Under the pieces are notes generated by a model that was not told the origin of the DNA, searched no databases, and worked only from the letters and a program-made list of their open reading frames with translations. Below are positions 57,037 to 64,000 of a stretch of DNA of 64,000 bases, piece by piece; within the stretch, counting starts at the first letter, position 1, and each line of letters starts with the position of its first letter. The stretch covers positions 1 to 64,000 of the IMG/VR virus record IMGVR_UViG_2563367162_000001, one strand, 5' to 3'. The DNA is from a virus (lineage: Duplodnaviria; Caudoviricetes). A program made the translations under genes and the position numbers.

Positions 57037-57909
57037 ATGCTTGGTATCTGTTCCAACAGTACTATTACAGCCAGATTTGAACAAGGTATATCTATTCCTG
57101 ATTACATTTTCGTAGGTGATAATGGTGTTATCTTTTCCCAAGAAAAAAAATATATATTGGGTGAAACGGATTGGTATTCAGTAGTACACGGTAATGGCAA
57201 ATATATAGCAGTCGGCAAACGTGGATATATGACCACTTCAACAGATGGCAGAACATGGACAGGACCGGACATCGTTGGATACTCGTCAGACTGGTATTCA
57301 ATAGTCTATGGAAACGGAAAATTTGTCGCTGCCGGTAATGGATATGTTGCAGTATCTACGGGCACCGGAGATTGGAACATTGTCAAGATCAGCAACACCA
57401 AGAACCGCACATGGAACAGCATACAATATTGCAATGGCCGGTTTATCGTTGTAGGCAATAACGGATATATGGCAACCTCCACAGACGGAAACGTCTGGCA
57501 GGAAACAAAAATTGGCTCCGGTGACTTAAAATCTGTAGCTTATGGAAATGGAATTTATGTCATTGCGGAAAAAAGTGGTTATATTAATCACTCGACAGAC
57601 CTGACAAACTGGAACAGGCTAAAAATCACAGTAACCAATTTGTATTCTTCAACATTCGGAAATAATAAATTTATTGTAAGTTCCTATGGATATATGCACT
57701 ATTCCATCGATGGGAAGAATTGGGTGGAGGTAGCCTTTGGGAATAATTCCTGGGAAAAAGTCATATTTGAAGATAATAGTTTTCTGGCTTTGGAAAACAA
57801 TGGTTATTTAGGAAAATCCACGGATGGAATTAATTGGAAATCTACCGGAATAATAGAAAGCGGAGACGTTCGGCTCAGCTTTCTCAATGGTTTTTGTCGC
57901 ATAAAATAA
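57037..57909 (+). CDS. Beta-propeller cassette A
   Basis: Repeats W.S..YGNGK..AVG..GY...S.DG..W; no signal peptide; begins at the 21-bp site. Confidence 0.8.
   Translation: MLGICSNSTITARFEQGISIPDYIFVGDNGVIFSQEKKYILGETDWYSVVHGNGKYIAVGKRGYMTTSTDGRTWTGPDIVGYSSDWYSIVYGNGKFVAAGNGYVAVSTGTGDWNIVKISNTKNRTWNSIQYCNGRFIVVGNNGYMATSTDGNVWQETKIGSGDLKSVAYGNGIYVIAEKSGYINHSTDLTNWNRLKITVTNLYSSTFGNNKFIVSSYGYMHYSIDGKNWVEVAFGNNSWEKVIFEDNSFLALENNGYLGKSTDGINWKSTGIIESGDVRLSFLNGFCRIK
57053..57073 (+). repeat. Cassette 5' site copy 1 (CCAACAGTACTATTACAGCCA)
   Basis: Identical 21-mers at 59785-59805 (-) and 61215-61235 (+). Confidence 0.9.
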
Positions 57910-57941
57910 AAAAATGGTTTTATTGAACTGACAGCATTAAG

Positions 57942-57972
57942 ATAGCGAAACCAATTCTCTCGGTTTCGCTAT
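57942..57972. terminator. Hairpin between convergent ORFs
   Basis: ATAGCGAAACC..GGTTTCGCTAT. Confidence 0.65.
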
Positions 57973-57996
57973 TAAATTTTGCATACAGTGCAAAAA

Positions 57997-58293
57997 CTAT
58001 AACAACTCTATTTCTTTTACGGATAATCCGGTAGCCTCCGAAATAATCTCAACCAACACACCCAGTTTCTTTAGATTAAAAGCATTTTCTTTTCTCTCTT
58101 TCAGACGGCCTTCAGCTTGCCCTTCTTCCCATCCTTTGGATTCTGCTGTAGCTATGGTGTTTTGCCAATCACGATAGACTTTTAGACTTTCTTCATAAGC
58201 TTCATACTGTTCTTTTGTGAATTTGGCTATTTCAACCGCTTCAAACAATTTATTAAACACTCTTTCCTGTAAAGCTTCCGGACGTTCCATCAA
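57997..58293 (-). pseudogene. C-terminal fragment of an Rpn / PD-(D/E)XK transposase-family protein
   Basis: F.KLFE..EIAKF..YEESLKVYRD..G.EEG..EG..IISEATGLS.KEI. Confidence 0.75.
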
Positions 58294-58739
58294 CCGATGG
58301 GGTGAACTGGACTACACCAAAGCAATTTGGTAGTAATACCTGGAATGCTGTAATATATGCTAATGGAAAGTTTGTGGCTGTTGGATCACATTGTTTCGCG
58401 GCTTTGTCGCTTAATGGTGAATTATGGCAGGAATCATATGATTTTCGGATAAATGGAGCGAGTGATATAATATATGCAAACGGTAAATATGTTGTGGTTG
58501 GAAACAAAGGCTTTACAAATACATCAACCAACGGTTCTGTCTGGGAACAGAAAGTATATGCAGGTAACATTAACTGGAAAGGCGTAGCTTACGCTGACGG
58601 AAAATATGTTGCCGTCGGAAGTAGTGGTTACATAACTTCATCGAATGACGGTGTGAGTTGGACTACTCCAAAACTAATAACAGATGAATCAGGAAATCCT
58701 ATTACAGCAACTCTAAATAGTATTTGCATCATGCCATAA
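58293..58739 (+). pseudogene. Beta-propeller cassette B (5'-truncated)
   Basis: Same repeats and C-terminus (DESGNPITATLNSIC); lacks the 5' half and the 21-bp site. Confidence 0.75.
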
Positions 58740-58789
58740 TAATATTCCCCGGAAATAATCGTTATGACAAGTGGTTCTCCGGAAGAGTA

Positions 58790-58826
58790 AGAAGGAGCTG
58801 TGTGATATTATTCATACAGCTCCTTC
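58790..58826. terminator. Hairpin between convergent cassettes B and C
   Basis: GAAGGAGCTGT..ACAGCTCCTTC. Confidence 0.65.
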
Positions 58827-58903
58827 ATTCTCCGGTTCTTCAGAATACCGTTTTACGTTCGCCTAAATCAGAATTGGGATATGACCGTTCTCACATCCGG
58901 TTG

Positions 58904-59818
58904 TTATTGTATAGCACAGAGAGCGTTCAGATTAATATTTAATGCATTTCCGGAAGCGTCTTTTACCTGCTCCGGATTTGACCAGACTATCCCGTCGGCA
59001 GACTGGGTTATCAGTCCATTGTCACCTATTGCGATAAATTTATTATTGAGATAAATGACATCGTTCCAGTTCTGTGTACCAATCTGTTTTGGGGAGTCCC
59101 AACCCTTGGATGAAACTATATACCCGTCTTTCCCAACGGCGACAATTGTTCCGTCATTGGAAACTGCAACCCGTGTAAAGGTCTTTGTAAGTGATATTTC
59201 CGCACTTTTGGACCAACCGAAATAACGGCTGAAAGCATAAACCTCACCCCATTCCCCAAGTGCTATGAATTTTTTGAGATCACCATTGAATGTTATATCT
59301 ATGGGGGTAATCCCTCCAATTACTTTTCTGGTCCATGTTGTGGAATAGTCGTCCATTGTATAACTATATCCATAACCGTCTTGTTTCCCTACCATAACGA
59401 ATGTTTTATCTCCATAAGCTACCGAATAAGGAATAAAGGTAGAATGTGGCTGACTGCCAGTAAAGTTCCAGTCGTTTGATACAAAGTATGTTGCTGTCGA
59501 ATAACTTGTAGAATATGATGTTATGAACTTGTCATTACCAAAAGCAACCCCAATCGGTTCATATCCTGTTCCCATCTTACTTGTCAGATTCCAATTCTCA
59601 CCATCGGATGAAGTCATATATGGAGCGGTAAAAGATGAGCCTTCCTCCATTTTGCCACTTACAAAGTATCTACCATTGCCATAGGCCACATACTTCCAAT
59701 CACACTGTCCTGTCTGTTGTGTTCCTAAAGGAGTGATCACATACCCATTGTTCCCTACAATTATGAACTTACTACTTATAAAATTGGCTGTAATAGTACT
59801 GTTGGAGCTAAGTAACAT
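58904..59818 (-). CDS. Beta-propeller cassette C
   Basis: Begins SNSTITANF; same repeats; ends DASGNALNINLNALC. Confidence 0.8.
   Translation of the reverse strand: MLLSSNSTITANFISSKFIIVGNNGYVITPLGTQQTGQCDWKYVAYGNGRYFVSGKMEEGSSFTAPYMTSSDGENWNLTSKMGTGYEPIGVAFGNDKFITSYSTSYSTATYFVSNDWNFTGSQPHSTFIPYSVAYGDKTFVMVGKQDGYGYSYTMDDYSTTWTRKVIGGITPIDITFNGDLKKFIALGEWGEVYAFSRYFGWSKSAEISLTKTFTRVAVSNDGTIVAVGKDGYIVSSKGWDSPKQIGTQNWNDVIYLNNKFIAIGDNGLITQSADGIVWSNPEQVKDASGNALNINLNALCAIQ
59785..59805 (-). repeat. Cassette 5' site copy 2 (inverted)
   Basis: TGGCTGTAATAGTACTGTTGG. Confidence 0.9.
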
Positions 59819-59888
59819 GGATAATGTACTTCTTTAAACATACAAACCTGTGTAATTGCGATAAATAGATTATTTTTGAAACTAAAAA

Positions 59889-61052
59889 ATGGAACAGCTG
59901 AATATATTGGCCACAAAATTACGCAACTGCATTACTAATTTTTTTACTCAGGCAGAAGCTGTCGGTGTAAAGGGAAACATATATCTTTTTCTGGAAGGAG
60001 AAGAACTCAGCTTTTCAATATCAGAGTTGCAAGGTACCTCTGATTTCGAAAAGCCGCTGAAAGAAAAAAAACTGGGCGGATACTATGATCAGGTTAGAAT
60101 CACTCTACCTGAGGGGGGGCCAGGCAAAAGTTACAACATGTTTACCGATTTCTTTTCCGACATATGTGCTGATATAAATATCAAGGACTCCACACGTAAA
60201 AACTATTTTCGGACTCTTGATACATTGAAAGAGTATGCTCCAAACGCACATTTGTCAGATATTGATTCCAGCTTTGTATGTGGTTATGAATTATTCCTTT
60301 CCTCTTTGAAGATGAAAGCCAATACTATAATCAAACATCTGAAACATTTAAAGAAGGCCTTTCACCAGGCTTGTCGGAAAGGCTTTATAAAACATTCTGT
60401 AGATGAACTGTTCAGCCTCTGTAATGTTAGACCAGAGAAAACCTTCAAAGAAAGCCTGACGACTAAGGAACTGGTCGTGCTCTATCAATACCTGCAAAAC
60501 AATTTTAATACACTGGAAAATAGAGAACGAGAGATTCTTGCCGGCTTTATATTCTCATGTCTGACCGGTCTGCGCTATTCCGATATCTGCAAAGTGGAAT
60601 ATTCAAATATTAAACGGATCAGGAACAAGCGATGGCTTTTCCTCACAATGAAGAAGACATCACAGAAAGTTTTTGTTCCCATTGAACAGATGTTTTCAGG
60701 AAAGGCACTCGAAGTGATAAGATTATTTCACCGTACACGGGGAAAACTCTTTTATATGCCGTCCAATGCAGTGTGCAATCGGGTTATAAAACGTGTTTAC
60801 AAGAAGCTCTTCCGCAGTAAAAAGAATATCTCTTTTCATACTGGGCGTCATACGGCAGCCACACTGCTGCTGTATCATAACACGCCACTCACAACTATAA
60901 AGGAAATTCTTGGCCATACCAATATTCGTACTACAGAAACATATGCGGATATAAATGAAGCGACAATTTACAATTCCATATCCAAAATAAAATTCAAGGA
61001 ACTGGAGAAGGTTGAACGGAGGGTGGCCAGAATCTTTTCTGATAAGTTCTGA
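59889..61052 (+). CDS. Tyrosine recombinase 1
   Basis: SAM-like domain; GLRYSD, KKT, HTGRHT, LGH, TETYA (complete catalytic set). Confidence 0.92.
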   Translation: MEQLNILATKLRNCITNFFTQAEAVGVKGNIYLFLEGEELSFSISELQGTSDFEKPLKEKKLGGYYDQVRITLPEGGPGKSYNMFTDFFSDICADINIKDSTRKNYFRTLDTLKEYAPNAHLSDIDSSFVCGYELFLSSLKMKANTIIKHLKHLKKAFHQACRKGFIKHSVDELFSLCNVRPEKTFKESLTTKELVVLYQYLQNNFNTLENREREILAGFIFSCLTGLRYSDICKVEYSNIKRIRNKRWLFLTMKKTSQKVFVPIEQMFSGKALEVIRLFHRTRGKLFYMPSNAVCNRVIKRVYKKLFRSKKNISFHTGRHTAATLLLYHNTPLTTIKEILGHTNIRTTETYADINEATIYNSISKIKFKELEKVERRVARIFSDKF

Positions 61053-61213
61053 AGACTACCAATAGGTAAACCGACTTCTGACAGCAGATCAAAATATTTG
61101 AAATAAGCTTCTGCTTAACGATGTATACAAGAAGTCGTCATTCCGTTTTATTTGATTTGTAGTGTATATTATATCGTATGAGGAAGAAAAAAGCTAATTA
61201 GGACAGCCTTCAT

Positions 61214-62179
61214 ACCAACAGTACTATTACAGCCAATTTCGAATCTCCGCTCTCCATTTCGGATTATGTGCTCACGGGAAATAATGGTGTCATTCTCTCC
61301 AGGGGAGAAAGTTATGTGATCGGTACTGCTGACTGGTATTCAATAGCCTACGGAAACGGCAAATATGTTGCGGTTGGAGCATCCAAAGGCAATAACGGGG
61401 CTTATAGCGGGTATATTACCAATTCGGCAGACGGAGTGAATTGGAGTACCCCTAAAAGGTTGGTTGTTTCTGGGAACGGCTCGACAACAAAATGTAAGAC
61501 AGTTATGTATGCGAGTGGAAAGTTTGTCGCAGCCGGATTAAGGGACGTTGATGATTTTGACCCCTATTCCTCCATTGCCATATCGAATGATGGGGATAAC
61601 TGGACATTTGCCTCTAAATTCAGCAACACCAGTTATTTCAATACGTATTATGGTGTAGCCCATGGCAATTGTAAATACGTCGCTGTGGGGAGTTACAGCA
61701 ACCGGAATTTGATATCGGCCGTCTCAACTGATGCGGTTTCATGGAGCGGATATGACGTGGCGGGTCCCGGAACAGGTATATTGAAAGGTATAATTTTCGC
61801 GCAGGATGTTTTCTGGGCATTCAAGAATGGCACGGTGTATAGGTCGGTAGATGGGATCACATGGACATCGCATTCCATGGGAGGACTGAAAACATGCAAT
61901 TCTATGGCTTTTGGAAACGGAGTATTTGTCGCTGTCGGAGATGATGGATATATCTCCACATCCACAAATGGAACAATCTGGGGAACTGCTTTCATGGCCG
62001 GAACGAGCAAATGGAAGTCCGTCATATATTCAGATGGAAAATTCGTTGTGGTCGGAGAAGACGGATATATCTCATTCTCTAATGACGGCATGTCGTGGAG
62101 CGAACCCATTCCGATAAGAGATAATTCGGGCAATAAGGTCAAGACAACCTTTAATTCCATTCTTAGACTGGCTGATTAA
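61214..62179 (+). CDS. Beta-propeller cassette D (no ATG before the site; probably silent)
   Basis: Frame reads TNSTITANFESPLSISDYVLTGNNG..; same repeats. Confidence 0.75.
   Translation, partial: TNSTITANFESPLSISDYVLTGNNGVILSRGESYVIGTADWYSIAYGNGKYVAVGASKGNNGAYSGYITNSADGVNWSTPKRLVVSGNGSTTKCKTVMYASGKFVAAGLRDVDDFDPYSSIAISNDGDNWTFASKFSNTSYFNTYYGVAHGNCKYVAVGSYSNRNLISAVSTDAVSWSGYDVAGPGTGILKGIIFAQDVFWAFKNGTVYRSVDGITWTSHSMGGLKTCNSMAFGNGVFVAVGDDGYISTSTNGTIWGTAFMAGTSKWKSVIYSDGKFVVVGEDGYISFSNDGMSWSEPIPIRDNSGNKVKTTFNSILRLAD
61215..61235 (+). repeat. Cassette 5' site copy 3
   Basis: CCAACAGTACTATTACAGCCA; in-frame TAG at 61199-61201 upstream. Confidence 0.9.
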
Positions 62180-62378
62180 AGTTTTCTTTCTCAAAGCAAG
62201 CCAACACGACAACAGGTACCGGAAAACTTCTAGTACCTGTTTCTTGCCCGTTTTTAGCCTCATACAGGACAAAACGATAACTCTCATTTCACAATCAGAA
62301 GACCGTAGAACGAATTTATGACCTGTCGGGATGTTTTTGTTGGAAACACGATAAATAGAATTATTTTTGTTTCTAAAA

Positions 62379-63541
62379 ATGGATTCATTAAATATTCTGG
62401 GCACCCGGCTGCGTGATTGTATAAAAAGCCACCTTCTCCAATTTGGGAAGGGTGATATCAAGGGAAACATATATATACTATTGGGAGGAAATGAATTCAC
62501 CCTCTCGATATCCGACCTATGTGAGGAGAACGAAGCCTCCCCCCCCAGAAAGAAAAATATTTGGGTGGGTATTATGACAAGGTCAAGGCAATGCTGCCTG
62601 AAGGGGAGACTGACAAGCACTATGTTGCCTTTGTCGATTTTTTCTCTGACGTATGTATGGAGACCGGCATCAGGGAGTCCACCCGAAAGAACTATCTCCG
62701 GACACTGGATACATTGGAAGAATATGCTCCGGAAGCGGCTTTCTGTGATATAGACAAAATATTCGTATGCGGGTACGAGCGCTTTCTTTGTTCCATGGGA
62801 ATGAAAGCCAACACGATTGTCAAGCATATGAAACATTTAAAAAAGGCACTCCGACAGGCTTGCCTGAAAGGGTATATCAAACATTCCATAGAGGAATTGT
62901 TTAGCCTTTGCAATGTGAAACCGGAGAAAACTTTCAGGGAAAGCCTGACGACTAAGGAACTGGTCGTGCTCTATCAATTTCAGGAAAACAATTTCGACAC
63001 GATGGAAGAAAAGGAGCGGGAGATTCTTTCCGGTTTTCTGTTCTCGTGTCTGACCGGTCTGCGCTATTCCGATATCTGCAAAGTGGAATATTCAAATATT
63101 AAACGGATCAGGAACAAGCGATGGCTTTTCCTCACAATGAAGAAGACATCACAGAAAGTTTTTGTTCCCATTGAACAGATGTTTTCAGGAAAGGCACTCG
63201 AAGTGATAAGATTATTTCACCGTACACGGGAAAAACTCTTTTATATGCCGTCCAATGCAGTGTGCAATCGGGTTATAAAACGTGTTTACAAGAAGCTTTT
63301 TCGCAGCCGGAAAAACATTTCTTTTCACGTTGCACACCATACGACTGCCACCCTTCTGCTTTATCATGACACGCCACTCACAACTATAAAGGAAATTCTG
63401 GGGCATACCAACATCCGCACTACGGAAATCTATGCGGACATAAACGAGGCGACAATCTACAATTCGATATCCAAGATCAAATTTAAGGAACTAGAAAAGG
63501 TTGAACGAAGGATAGCTAGGAGCTTTTCCAATAAAAGCTAA
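62379..63541 (+). pseudogene. Tyrosine recombinase 2, frameshifted at a C8 tract
   Basis: Paralog of 59889; adding one C at 62539-62546 restores a colinear ORF; HxxR reads HVAH. Confidence 0.8.
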
Positions 63542-63597
63542 AGATCCACTGCCAAGAGCTTTAGCTTCTGGTAGTGGACCGAAAAAAACTGTGGCAA

Positions 63598-64000
63598 CTA
63601 TAAGTCACCGATGATTACGGCACAAACGCCGTTGAGAGTTGCTGTAACTACTTTACCTGATTCATCTTTTATTTGTTCGGGCGTAGTCCAATTTTCACCA
63701 TCTGTTGAAGTGGTTACATATCCATTATCACTTATTACTACAAAATTTTCATTTGCGCAACAAACATGAGCCCCATATTTTACTCCACTTATTATTTTTT
63801 TGGGTGTAGTCCAATTTTCACCATCTGTTGAAGTGGTTACATATCCATCGTTATATCCTCTATCTCCTACAACCACAAATTTCCCATTTCCATAACAAAT
63901 ATTAGTCCAATCATGAAATATACTTCCTACAGTTATAGGTGTTGTCCAATTTACTCCGTTAGTGGAAGTAGTTATATTTCCATCATTTCCCACTGCCACA
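63598..64000 (-). CDS. Beta-propeller cassette E (3' part; runs off the window)
   Basis: Same repeats; ends DESGKVVTATLNGVC. Confidence 0.8.
   Translation of the reverse strand, partial: VAVGNDGNITTSTNGVNWTTPITVGSIFHDWTNICYGNGKFVVVGDRGYNDGYVTTSTDGENWTTPKKIISGVKYGAHVCCANENFVVISDNGYVTTSTDGENWTTPEQIKDESGKVVTATLNGVCAVIIGDL

What the first reader, a model, noticed from the sequence alone, without database searches (positions are those of the whole stretch)
57037..64000. Candidate multi-recombinase shufflon of beta-propeller cassettes sharing a 21-bp site
Seen: five paralogous but divergent ~300-aa beta-propeller ORFs in orientations +,+,-,+,-. All three with a visible intact 5' end start with the identical 21-mer CCAACAGTACTATTACAGCCA, in the same frame (NSTITA(N/R)F), and similarity stops abruptly upstream of it. 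The site contains an imperfect palindrome (AACAGTACTATT). None has a signal peptide, and cassette D has an in-frame stop just upstream. Two tyrosine recombinase paralogs are interleaved. Established: R64 pilV and Bacteroides hsdS/susC shufflons swap 3' ends by inversion at short sites, usually with one recombinase. Inference: these are interchangeable C-terminal heads for one expressed surface/adhesin gene whose constant 5' part lies outside the window. I do not recognise this family or the repeated recombinase-plus-cassette layout as described.
Basis: partly seen in the sequence, partly recalled or inferred. Interest (0 to 1): 0.92.

Follow-up and report, generated by a model that had tools for sequence, protein, structure and literature searches.

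The report
Head-swapping shufflon on a Bacteroidales conjugative element
A gut-bacterial conjugative element carries a DNA-inversion switch that puts one of several different beta-propeller heads onto a single surface lipoprotein, and public data show the switch in several positions.

Summary
The 21-mer CCAACAGTACTATTACAGCCA occurs exactly three times in the window (0 expected). A fourth copy lies 506 bases past the window end. That copy sits inside a 509-aa gene with a lipoprotein signal, two stalk domains and head E.

Inversions at the sites are visible in public data. Contigs of two other runs carry opposite-strand joints at S1xS4 and S2xS3, with 21-25 shared letters. Database proteins match the predicted fusions constant::D (521/521 residues, 41 contigs) and constant::A (485/485, 34 contigs).

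Only recombinase 1 is intact. Recombinase 2 is frameshifted and lacks a catalytic Arg, so "multi-recombinase" is not supported. Cassette B is a 5'-truncated remnant.

The gene always follows traN and an M23 peptidase gene in a Bacteroidales conjugative element (54/54 and 37/37 loci). The same 21-mer joins at least seven other head types in human-gut contigs, and the recombinase is found only where silent cassettes exist (9/17 vs 0/89 loci).

Other first-stage notes of this scan on the same genome, none followed up, gave the same reading. My literature searches found no description. The protein's function is not known.

The parts
57053..57073 (+). Site S1, exact 21-mer at the 5' end of silent head A
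   Evidence: breakpoint of the S1xS4 joint in run X19
57037..57909 (+). Head A, a silent beta-propeller cassette (284 aa from the site). No signal peptide; only 5 codons lie upstream of the site.
   Evidence: constant::A fusion P0268 is 485/485 identical
57997..58293 (-). C-terminal fragment of a PD-(D/E)XK (PDDEXK_2) transposase-like gene that abuts and truncates cassette B
   Evidence: Pfam PF12784, E 2.8e-9, profile positions 182-229 only
58302..58739 (+). Cassette B, a 5'-truncated propeller remnant with no site
   Evidence: 43-48% identical to parts of A, D and E
58904..59818 (-). Head C, a silent beta-propeller cassette (299 aa from the site)
   Evidence: a partial constant::C-like protein (P0011, 95%) exists in a related element
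59785..59805 (-). Site S2, exact 21-mer (25-26 bases shared with S3 and S4)
   Evidence: breakpoint of the S2xS3 joints in runs X19 and X20
59889..61052 (+). Recombinase 1, an intact 387-aa tyrosine recombinase lying inside the S2-S3 invertible segment
   Evidence: Pfam Phage_integrase 1.2e-18 and Phage_int_SAM_5 9.7e-16; HTGRH and TETY align with the catalytic HxxR and Y of XerA
61215..61235 (+). Site S3, exact 21-mer at the 5' end of silent head D
61202..62179 (+). Head D, a silent beta-propeller cassette (320 aa from the site) with an in-frame stop 6 codons upstream
   Evidence: constant::D fusion P0242 is 521/521 identical
62367..63541 (+). Recombinase 2, a disabled paralogue. It is frameshifted at a C8 run near 62540 and has HVAHH in place of HxxRH. 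It is 81% identical to recombinase 1 over 325 aa.
   Evidence: no insertion or deletion there in 4 runs laid
63598..64000 (-). 3' part of the gene expressed in this arrangement (head E). The rest lies beyond the window end, in contig coordinates that continue the window's. Head E runs on to 64505. Site S4, an exact 21-mer at 64506-64526 (-), codes residues 201-208, the last strand of the InlB B-repeat domain. The constant 5' part at 64527-65127 (-) comprises a lipoprotein signal (MKKVKFLFLTAFVAVFAGC), a linker, a small beta domain and a Flg_new_2 domain.
   Evidence: PF18998 E 5e-18 at residues 137-211; models; fold matches; S4 is a breakpoint of the S1xS4 joint

Best explanation
This is an active shufflon: a multiple-inversion system run by a tyrosine recombinase. 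It exchanges the C-terminal head of one lipoprotein encoded by a Bacteroidales integrative conjugative element.

The expressed gene (contig 63598-65127, minus strand) encodes:
- a lipoprotein signal;
- a constant stalk of about 200 aa, made of a small beta domain and an InlB B-repeat domain;
- a head of about 300 aa that is a beta-propeller.

The 21-25-bp site codes the last strand of the stalk domain. It is repeated, in frame, in front of three complete silent heads (A, C, D) that have no signal peptide and no constant part.

The sites lie in the orientations +,-,+,-. Recombination between any + site and any - site inverts the DNA between them:
- S3xS4 puts head D behind the constant part.
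- S1xS4 puts head A there.
- S1xS2 followed by S1xS4 would bring in head C.
- S2xS3 only flips the segment that carries recombinase 1.

Shown here: the sites, the read-through gene, the two kinds of inversion joint, and exact constant::A, constant::D and constant::E products in public data.

Inferred:
- Recombinase 1 is the enzyme.
- Switching is frequent within a clone.
- The protein is surface-exposed and its head binds a ligand. My best guess is a glycan on another cell or on the host.
For: Sites and gene:
- Four exact sites, with 0 expected by chance.
- Same frame at every site, and unrelated upstream flanks.
- The constant gene has a lipobox and reads through S4.
- Pfam finds Flg_new_2 with E 5e-18. 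The AlphaFold model has mean pLDDT 85.5. The strand at residues 203-210 (203-208 in the constant-only model) is coded by the site.

Contig joints:
- 1052<->8526, opposite strands, 21 shared letters, in run X19. The reciprocal product is shown by a 9-letter loose end equal to the end of the constant part.
- 3780<->5239 in X19 and 3806<->5215 in X20, 25 shared letters each.

Protein products:
- P0242, 521 aa, on 41 contigs, is 521/521 identical to constant + head D.
- P0268, 485 aa, on 34 contigs, is 485/485 identical to constant + head A.
- P0001, 509 aa, on 12 contigs, is constant + head E.

Association with the recombinase: homologues of recombinase 1 were found in 9 of 17 related loci that hold silent cassettes and in 0 of 89 loci that have only the expressed gene.

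Other shufflons with the same site and other heads: L095, L096, L034, L102.
Against: - All runs laid were contigs, so no read-level measure of switching within one population exists. The contig breaks at S3 and S4 (run X1) and at S2, S3 and S4 (run X10) in isolate runs are only suggestive.
- No exact constant::C product was seen, only a partial relative at 95%.
- The recombinase was not tested, and its gene was absent from the held DNA of 8 of 17 silent-cassette loci. Many of those loci are short, and one (L099) is really a frameshifted constant gene.
- The 89 loci with only the expressed gene are near-copies of one widespread element, so the association test (p = 7e-9) overstates independence.
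- Surface exposure and ligand binding are not shown.
- The promoter scan was uninformative: 23 sites found against 23 expected.
Confidence: 0.88

Rival explanations
1. The rearrangements are rare, fixed differences between strains (old recombination events), not a programmed reversible switch working within a population.
For: Only consensus contigs were available. Each run shows one main arrangement. Recombinase 2 is decayed and cassette B is a remnant, which shows the locus also degenerates.
Against: Constant::A, constant::D and constant::E are each identical in every residue to this contig's parts, so the rearrangements happened with no divergence since. Reciprocal junctions are precise to the 21-25-bp site. 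An intact recombinase is kept. Contigs of two isolate runs break with 30-base overlaps exactly at S3/S4 and at S2/S3/S4. In a k=31 graph such a break needs both junction forms among the reads (my inference).
Confidence: 0.08
2. The cassettes are independent paralogous genes, each expressed alone, and the 21-mer is kept only because it codes a conserved peptide.
For: A and C have an ATG 5 codons upstream of the site. The peptide NSTITANF is the conserved last strand of a domain.
Against: The 21 bases are identical at every synonymous position while the flanking coding DNA diverges. D has a stop 6 codons upstream and no nearby ATG. No cassette has a signal peptide. Inversion joints and fusion proteins exist.
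Confidence: 0.02
3. Reading of function A: the lipoprotein is the element's mating adhesin. The head chooses which recipient surfaces the donor binds, as PilV does for plasmid R64.
For: The gene is the last one on the transfer-gene strand. It follows traN, an M23 peptidase gene and an HTH gene in 54/54 (M23) and 37/37 (TraN) related loci with enough upstream DNA. The stalk resembles adhesin stalk domains (best match Z 5.8; InlB B-repeat entry 2y5p Z 5.2). The element also carries fimbrillin-like genes next to its tra genes.
Against: In related Bacteroides conjugative elements, deleting a diversified pilus tip adhesin (bfrT) left transfer efficiency unchanged (bioRxiv 10.1101/2024.11.15.621889, section 7, read). 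That is a different protein and the matings were isogenic. I have no functional data for this protein. Position in an operon is weak evidence.
Confidence: 0.25
4. Reading of function B: the lipoprotein is cargo that serves the host cell, either for binding to host or dietary glycans, or to vary a surface antigen or phage receptor. It has no role in transfer.
For: Bacteroides are known to vary surface proteins by inversion: susC/D and outer-membrane-protein shufflons (PMC3090145 and PMC5729914, passages read). Conjugative elements of Bacteroides carry diversified adhesins that are not needed for transfer (bioRxiv 10.1101/2024.11.15.621889, section 7). Next to the head, other elements hold cargo such as susC/susD (L005).
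Against: The fixed place at the end of the transfer operon across the element family fits a backbone gene rather than free cargo. There is no direct evidence either way.
Confidence: 0.45

Closest known systems
R64 / IncI1 plasmid shufflon (Rci recombinase, sfx sites, pilV). Recalled from my own knowledge; also mentioned in PMC9881135 (passages read).
   Same: Several short sites in both orientations. A tyrosine recombinase. A constant 5' part with exchangeable 3' ends of one surface protein. It sits on a conjugative element at the end of a transfer-related operon. The conserved part of the site is asymmetric: it lies on the cassette side only.
   Different: A different phylum and a different transfer system. 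The target is a lipoprotein with an InlB B-repeat stalk and whole folded heads of 130-320 aa, not a type IV pilin tip. The recombinase gene lies inside an invertible segment and is duplicated. Homology of recombinase 1 to Rci was not tested. A role in choosing recipients is unproven here.
Bacteroides fragilis shufflons: hsdS (BB) and susC/susD (EE, R/S). PMC3090145 and PMC5729914, passages read.
   Same: The same bacterial order. Inversions at short inverted repeats with an adjacent tyrosine integrase gene. Variation of specificity or surface proteins.
   Different: hsdS swaps DNA-recognition domains of a cytoplasmic enzyme. EE brings whole susC/D gene pairs behind a promoter. Here in-frame heads are swapped onto one lipoprotein, and the system rides in a fixed slot of a conjugative element.
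DGR-diversified type V pilus tip adhesins on Bacteroides conjugative elements (bioRxiv 10.1101/2024.11.15.621889, section 7 and passages read)
   Same: A conjugative element of gut Bacteroidales that carries fimbrillin-type genes and a dedicated device for varying the ligand-binding end of a surface protein.
   Different: The device there is mutagenic retrohoming, which gives point variation in one domain. Here whole domains are exchanged by inversion. The protein here gave no pilin family hit.
Gene-altering programmed inversions found by surveys (PMC9881135; PMC10028968, passages read)
   Same: The general class: a gene plus silent partial copies, inverted repeats and a nearby recombinase.
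   Different: The main texts name no InlB B-repeat, propeller or Bacteroidales conjugative-element lipoprotein target.

Membership tests
Shufflon (multiple-inversion system that swaps 3' gene segments) | Three or more copies of a short site, in both orientations, within a few kb | tested here: met
   Four exact 21-mers in orientations +,-,+,- within 7.5 kb; 0 expected
Shufflon (multiple-inversion system that swaps 3' gene segments) | One expressed gene whose constant 5' part reads through a site into one cassette | tested here: met
   A 509-aa ORF with a lipoprotein signal reads through S4 into head E
Shufflon (multiple-inversion system that swaps 3' gene segments) | Silent cassettes that begin at the site, in frame, without their own 5' part | tested here: met
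   A, C and D start at the site in the same frame. A stop codon lies 6-14 codons upstream of the site (D 6, C 11, A 14). None has a signal peptide.
Shufflon (multiple-inversion system that swaps 3' gene segments) | Inversions observed with breakpoints in the sites | tested here: met
   Opposite-strand joints S1xS4 and S2xS3 in contigs of runs X19 and X20. Exact constant::D and constant::A proteins.
Shufflon (multiple-inversion system that swaps 3' gene segments) | A dedicated site-specific recombinase catalyses the inversions | not testable with these tools
   An intact tyrosine recombinase gene lies inside the locus and co-occurs with silent cassettes (9/17 vs 0/89 loci). Catalysis was not assayed.
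Shufflon (multiple-inversion system that swaps 3' gene segments) | Switching within a clonal population | tested here: inconclusive
   Only contigs were available. They break at S3/S4 and at S2/S3/S4 in two isolate runs.
Tyrosine recombinase (Phage_integrase) | Catalytic domain with R...HxxR...Y | tested here: met
   Recombinase 1: PF00589 E 1.2e-18; HTGRH and TETY align with the HxxR and Y of XerA. Recombinase 2: HVAHH plus a frameshift, so not met for copy 2.
Rci / sfx family of IncI shufflons | Recombinase orthologous to Rci; sfx-type site | not tested
   No Rci sequence was at hand. The closest named relatives are 'site-specific integrase' of Bacteroides at about 33% identity.
InlB B-repeat (Flg_new_2) proteins | Match to PF18998 above its cut-off | tested here: met
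   65.3 bits against a cut-off of 23.6, residues 137-211. Fold match to the InlB B-repeat entry 2y5p: Z 5.2, rmsd 2.4, 59 aligned.
Type V pilins (FimA/Mfa superfamily) | Pilin-family domain, or the two-domain pilin fold | tested here: inconclusive
   No Mfa or FimA family hit for P0001, although neighbouring genes do hit Mfa_like_1. No pilin appeared among the fold matches, but residues 36-133 were barely tested. A lipobox and a nearly invariant Arg55 after strand 39-45 leave the idea open.
Ycf48-like / BNR-type beta-propellers (DUF6242) | Propeller fold with repeated S-x-D-x-x-x-W blades | tested here: met
   Foldseek top hit Ycf48, E 1.9e-9, TM 0.62 by target. 5-6 such motifs in heads A, D and E, 2 in C. 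PF19755 at 29.1-32 bits against a cut-off of 29.

The most novel reading that the evidence does not exclude
The shufflon is the recipient-range switch of a Bacteroidales conjugative element. The exchangeable head of this last-in-operon lipoprotein decides which cell surfaces a donor attaches to, so a clonal donor population hedges across recipients with different capsules. That would be an R64-like solution evolved independently in another phylum with unrelated parts.

A further possibility follows from the exact 21-mer being kept even in elements that have a single head and no recombinase (89 loci). It could let co-resident elements trade heads through a recombinase supplied in trans.
Probability: 0.2. 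Interest if true: 0.85.

Novelty: new member of a known kind. Interest (0 to 1): 0.64.

Why it matters
Shufflons are few, and the best understood one (R64 pilV) sets the mating specificity of a plasmid.

This one has a new target: a lipoprotein in a fixed slot at the end of the transfer operon of a conjugative-element family. That family is common in mouse-gut and human-gut Bacteroidales. The exact site was found in 102 metagenome stretches, and one constant-region protein cluster has 2918 members.

The system swaps whole folded domains of unrelated folds (propellers and several small heads) at one 21-bp joint placed at a domain boundary. That makes it a natural domain-swapping device and a candidate tool for recombinase-driven protein display.

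If the head sets recipient range or niche binding, it bears on how mobile elements spread in the gut. The locus is also easy to test, because locked strains can be made by deleting recombinase 1.

Tried and rejected
- The look-up of encoding contigs for the B. fragilis homologue P0008 was closed. I therefore could not see whether the B. fragilis 'InlB B-repeat-containing' genes sit in shufflons, or whether they are the 'shufflon CC' named in PMC3090145.
The scan of viral contigs for the 21-mer found nothing.
- The plasmid search with P0001 gave only distant propeller matches at 36% identity or less. The only match to the constant part was weak (H15, a Bacteroides fragilis plasmid, query residues 1-177, 35% identity).
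- Promoter and terminator scans were at chance level: 23 found against 23.0 expected, and 10 against 7.3. The scan models sigma-70 promoters, not Bacteroides promoters.
- Foldseek with the constant part alone gave no match at E <= 0.001. The wide structural search gave only middling stalk-domain matches, Z <= 5.8. No pilin fold was seen, which excludes nothing.
- The depth differences in run X10 (22 against 52 across the S2-S3 segment) are per-contig word depths. I do not interpret them.
- I considered RecA-type recombination between the repeats and rejected it. The repeats are only 21-28 bp, the junctions are precise, and the rearranged loci go with a recombinase gene.
- I considered that the identical 21-mer merely reflects protein conservation and rejected it (see the rival explanations).
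- Literature searches that found no description of this system: shufflon + Bacteroides + conjugative transposon (6 papers, none on this); shufflon + InlB B-repeat; shufflon + type V pilus; shufflon/Bacteroidales/lipoprotein/ICE (17 papers, none on this by title or abstract); InlB B-repeat + Bacteroides + inver (1 irrelevant paper).
- Supplementary tables of PMC9881135 and PMC10028968 were closed and may list the locus.
- The lipoprotein export signal idea (acidic residues after the lipid-modified Cys, here CQSEEM) is recalled from the literature on Bacteroidota and was not tested.
I folded them into the text of the last part and sent the report again.

Full report
**Observation.** The 21-mer CCAACAGTACTATTACAGCCA is present exactly at 57053 (+), 59785-59805 (-) and 61215 (+). 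Even with three mismatches allowed there are no other matches, and none of 100 shuffles gave a match. The ORF list confirms propeller-like ORFs A (+), B (+), C (-), D (+) and E (-), with two recombinase paralogues between them. Pfam gives weak DUF6242 (propeller) hits for all five, and Phage_integrase plus Phage_int_SAM_5 for both recombinases. In all copies the site is in the frame (T)NSTITA(N/R)F. Upstream of it the sequences are unrelated, and D has a stop six codons upstream. The heads are 30-42% identical pairwise.

Three details need correcting. B is a 5'-truncated remnant of 145-160 codons that abuts a fragment of a PD-(D/E)XK transposase-like gene. Recombinase 2 is split by a frameshift at a C8 run. 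It also reads HVAHH where copy 1 has the catalytic HTGRH.

**Beyond the window.** The genome held is a single contig of 87,568 bases, and the window is its first 64,000. A fourth exact copy of the site lies at contig 64506-64526 (-). It sits inside an open frame, 63598-65148, whose product begins MKKVKFLFLTAFVAVFAGC. It has a lipoprotein signal and about 200 constant residues. The site then codes residues 201-208, and head E follows, of which the window holds only the 3' end.

Pfam finds a divergent InlB B-repeat domain at residues 137-211 (E 5e-18). An AlphaFold model built on 27 homologues (mean pLDDT 85.5) shows a disordered N-terminus, a short strand at 39-45, a small beta domain, the B-repeat domain and a propeller. 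The last strand of the B-repeat domain (residues 203-210, or 203-208 in the constant-only model) is the part coded by the site. The propeller's best solved relatives are Ycf48-type propellers (E 1.9e-9). The stalk resembles stalk domains of surface adhesins, including the InlB B-repeat itself, with middling scores (best Z 5.8, InlB B-repeat Z 5.2).

**Geometry.** The sites have the orientations S1 +, S2 -, S3 +, S4 -, with heads A and D to the right of S1 and S3 and heads C and E to the left of S2 and S4. Any +/- pair is an inverted repeat:
- S3xS4 would put D behind the constant part.
- S1xS4 would put A there.
- S1xS2 followed by S1xS4 would put C there.
- S2xS3 would only flip the 1.4-kb segment that holds recombinase 1.

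This follows directly from the coordinates.

**Evidence of inversion.** Twenty of the 24 listed public runs, from 11 studies, hold at least 0.86 of the sampled words of the stretch. They are mouse-gut metagenomes and coded isolates. I laid four of them, all as contigs.

Run X19 has a contig that joins the left flank of S1 to S4 plus head E on the opposite strand, with 21 shared letters. A second contig has head A preceded by nine letters that equal the end of the constant part. Together these are the two reciprocal products of S1xS4.

X19 and X20 each have a contig with an opposite-strand joint between S2 and S3 (25 shared letters). X20 also has a loose end equal to the reverse complement of the S3 left flank.

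In the two isolate runs the reference arrangement is seen. However, contigs end with 30-base overlaps exactly at S3 and S4 (X1) and at S2, S3 and S4 (X10). In a k=31 graph that needs both junction forms among the reads. This is my inference, not a measurement.

Independent support comes from the protein collection. P0242 (521 aa, seen on 41 contigs) is identical in 521 of 521 residues to the constant part plus head D of this contig. P0268 (485 aa, 34 contigs) is identical in 485 of 485 residues to the constant part plus head A. P0001, the arrangement of this contig, is on 12 contigs. A constant::C product was seen only as a partial relative at 95% (P0011). So three of the four complete heads are documented in the expressed position with no sequence change.

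**Context.** On the same strand upstream of the gene lie an HTH gene, an M23 peptidase gene, traN (DUF4138), traM, a TrbL/VirB6-like gene and traG. Further up lie three Mfa-like fimbrillin genes and a DUF3575 gene. On the other side of the shufflon lie Fic, a 658-aa fimbrillin-like gene and ParA. The element is therefore a Bacteroidales integrative conjugative element, although the record is filed as viral.

**Relatives.** The constant part has thousands of relatives: 4330 hits at E <= 0.001 among the 8000 candidates scored. Many proteins of 320-353 aa share only the constant part. Full-length relatives are named 'InlB B-repeat-containing protein' in Bacteroides fragilis, Phocaeicola and others.

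A scan of metagenome contigs for the exact 21-mer gave 102 stretches, most of those listed labelled human gut. Together with four genome loci this makes 106 loci with 113 site instances.
- In 89 loci the site lies only in an expressed gene, mostly with a 152-aa non-propeller head.
- In 17 loci there are silent cassettes. One of these, L099, is really a frameshifted expressed gene.

Homologues of recombinase 1 were found in 9 of the 17 and in 0 of the 89 (Fisher p = 7e-9). The 89 are near-copies of one element and many loci are short, so this overstates independence.

Loci L095, L096, L034 and L102 are shufflons of the same design with other heads of 126-229 aa (126-220 aa in L095, L096 and L034). 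L095 shows the whole layout from traN to the fimbrillin-like gene. At least seven non-propeller head types and several propellers are joined at the same 21 bases.

The gene's place is fixed. All 54 loci with at least 1300 bases upstream have the M23 gene, and all 37 with at least 2600 bases have traN. Recombinase 1 belongs to a small unnamed subfamily. About 35 clusters are at or above 41% identity (27 at 50% or more). The nearest named proteins are 'site-specific integrase' at about 33%.

**Mechanism.** I take this to be a classical shufflon. One intact tyrosine recombinase acts on an asymmetric site whose conserved part lies on the cassette side. It inverts the DNA between oppositely oriented sites and thereby exchanges the 3' end of one gene.

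The sites, the read-through gene, the junctions and the products are shown. Three things are inferred: the enzyme, the rate, and whether the disabled second copy plays any part. The second copy is probably a decaying duplicate, because the C8 run and HVAHH were the same in all four runs laid.

The joint is placed at a domain boundary, so that heads of unrelated folds can be attached.

**Function.** The protein looks like a surface lipoprotein with a stalk and a binding head, and propellers of this type often bind glycans. There are two readings.
- (a) A mating adhesin that sets recipient range, as PilV does for R64. This fits the fixed position at the end of the transfer operon.
- (b) Cargo that varies host or niche binding, or an antigen or phage receptor.

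[quoted passage not shown] That cautions against (a) but concerns another protein. I give (b) about 0.45 and (a) about 0.25, with the rest unknown.

By fold it is untested for residues 36-133.

**Novelty.** Shufflons are known, in Bacteroides too: hsdS and susC/susD (PMC3090145 and PMC5729914, passages read). Five searches found no description.

I therefore class it as a new member of a known kind. It has an unusual context (the backbone slot of a conjugative element), an unusual breadth of heads, and direct evidence of activity in public data.

Other first-stage notes of this scan on the same genome (listed as not followed up) reached the same reading. No other genome in the scan's notes shares the sequence.

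Noticed in passing
whole contig (window 1-64000 and beyond): The record is treated as a virus record. However, the parts I looked at encode a Bacteroidales conjugative element: traG, traM, traN, an M23 peptidase, ParA, Fic and fimbrillin-like genes. I saw no phage gene among the ORFs scanned.
   Followed up: partly
window 62367-63541: Recombinase 2 is disabled twice: a frameshift at a C8 run near 62540, and HVAHH instead of HxxRH. It also shares long near-identical stretches with copy 1 (81% protein identity). The C8 run showed no length change in the contigs of 4 runs.
   Followed up: partly
contig 63598-64505 (head E); L001 7669-7848: Two neighbouring blades of head E are 95% identical over 57 nt, 123 nt apart. 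Database variants of 468 aa (P0002, P0259) lack about 41 residues of E. This looks like the loss of one blade by recombination between blades.
   Followed up: partly
contig 74671-81665 (minus strand), L002 10671-17665: Upstream of the tra genes, on the same strand, lie three Mfa_like_1 fimbrillin-type genes (one with Flg_new_2 and BACON domains), a DUF5119-like gene, a TPR protein and a DUF3575 gene. This is a type V pilus-like set next to a type IV secretion operon.
   Followed up: partly
L003-L006 and 85 metagenome loci (e.g. L005 10602-10622): The exact 21-mer is kept in elements that have a single head and no recombinase in the DNA held, although their constant part is only about 70% identical in protein. 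Why the DNA is conserved there is unexplained. Possible reasons are past head exchange or use by a recombinase supplied in trans.
   Followed up: partly
L065 about 2193-2260; L090 about 790-835: Two copies of the site lie head to head, only 25 bases apart (one copy has one mismatch), in front of a silent 130-aa head.
   Followed up: no
L068 (4186-base human-gut contig): This contig has recombinase 1 at 99.5% identity and heads C, B remnant and A in the reference order. It begins and ends exactly at sites S3 and S1, as expected if the assembly graph branches at the sites.
   Followed up: partly
L102 5094-6029 and window 57997-58293: A PD-(D/E)XK (Rpn-like) transposase-type gene recurs inside these shufflons. 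It is whole in L102 (311 codons) and a fragment in the window, where it has cut off cassette B.
   Followed up: no
residue 55 of the constant part (contig about 64963-64965): An Arg that is nearly invariant among homologues follows a short N-terminal strand (residues 39-45). This recalls the protease site that matures type V pilins. Not tested.
   Followed up: no
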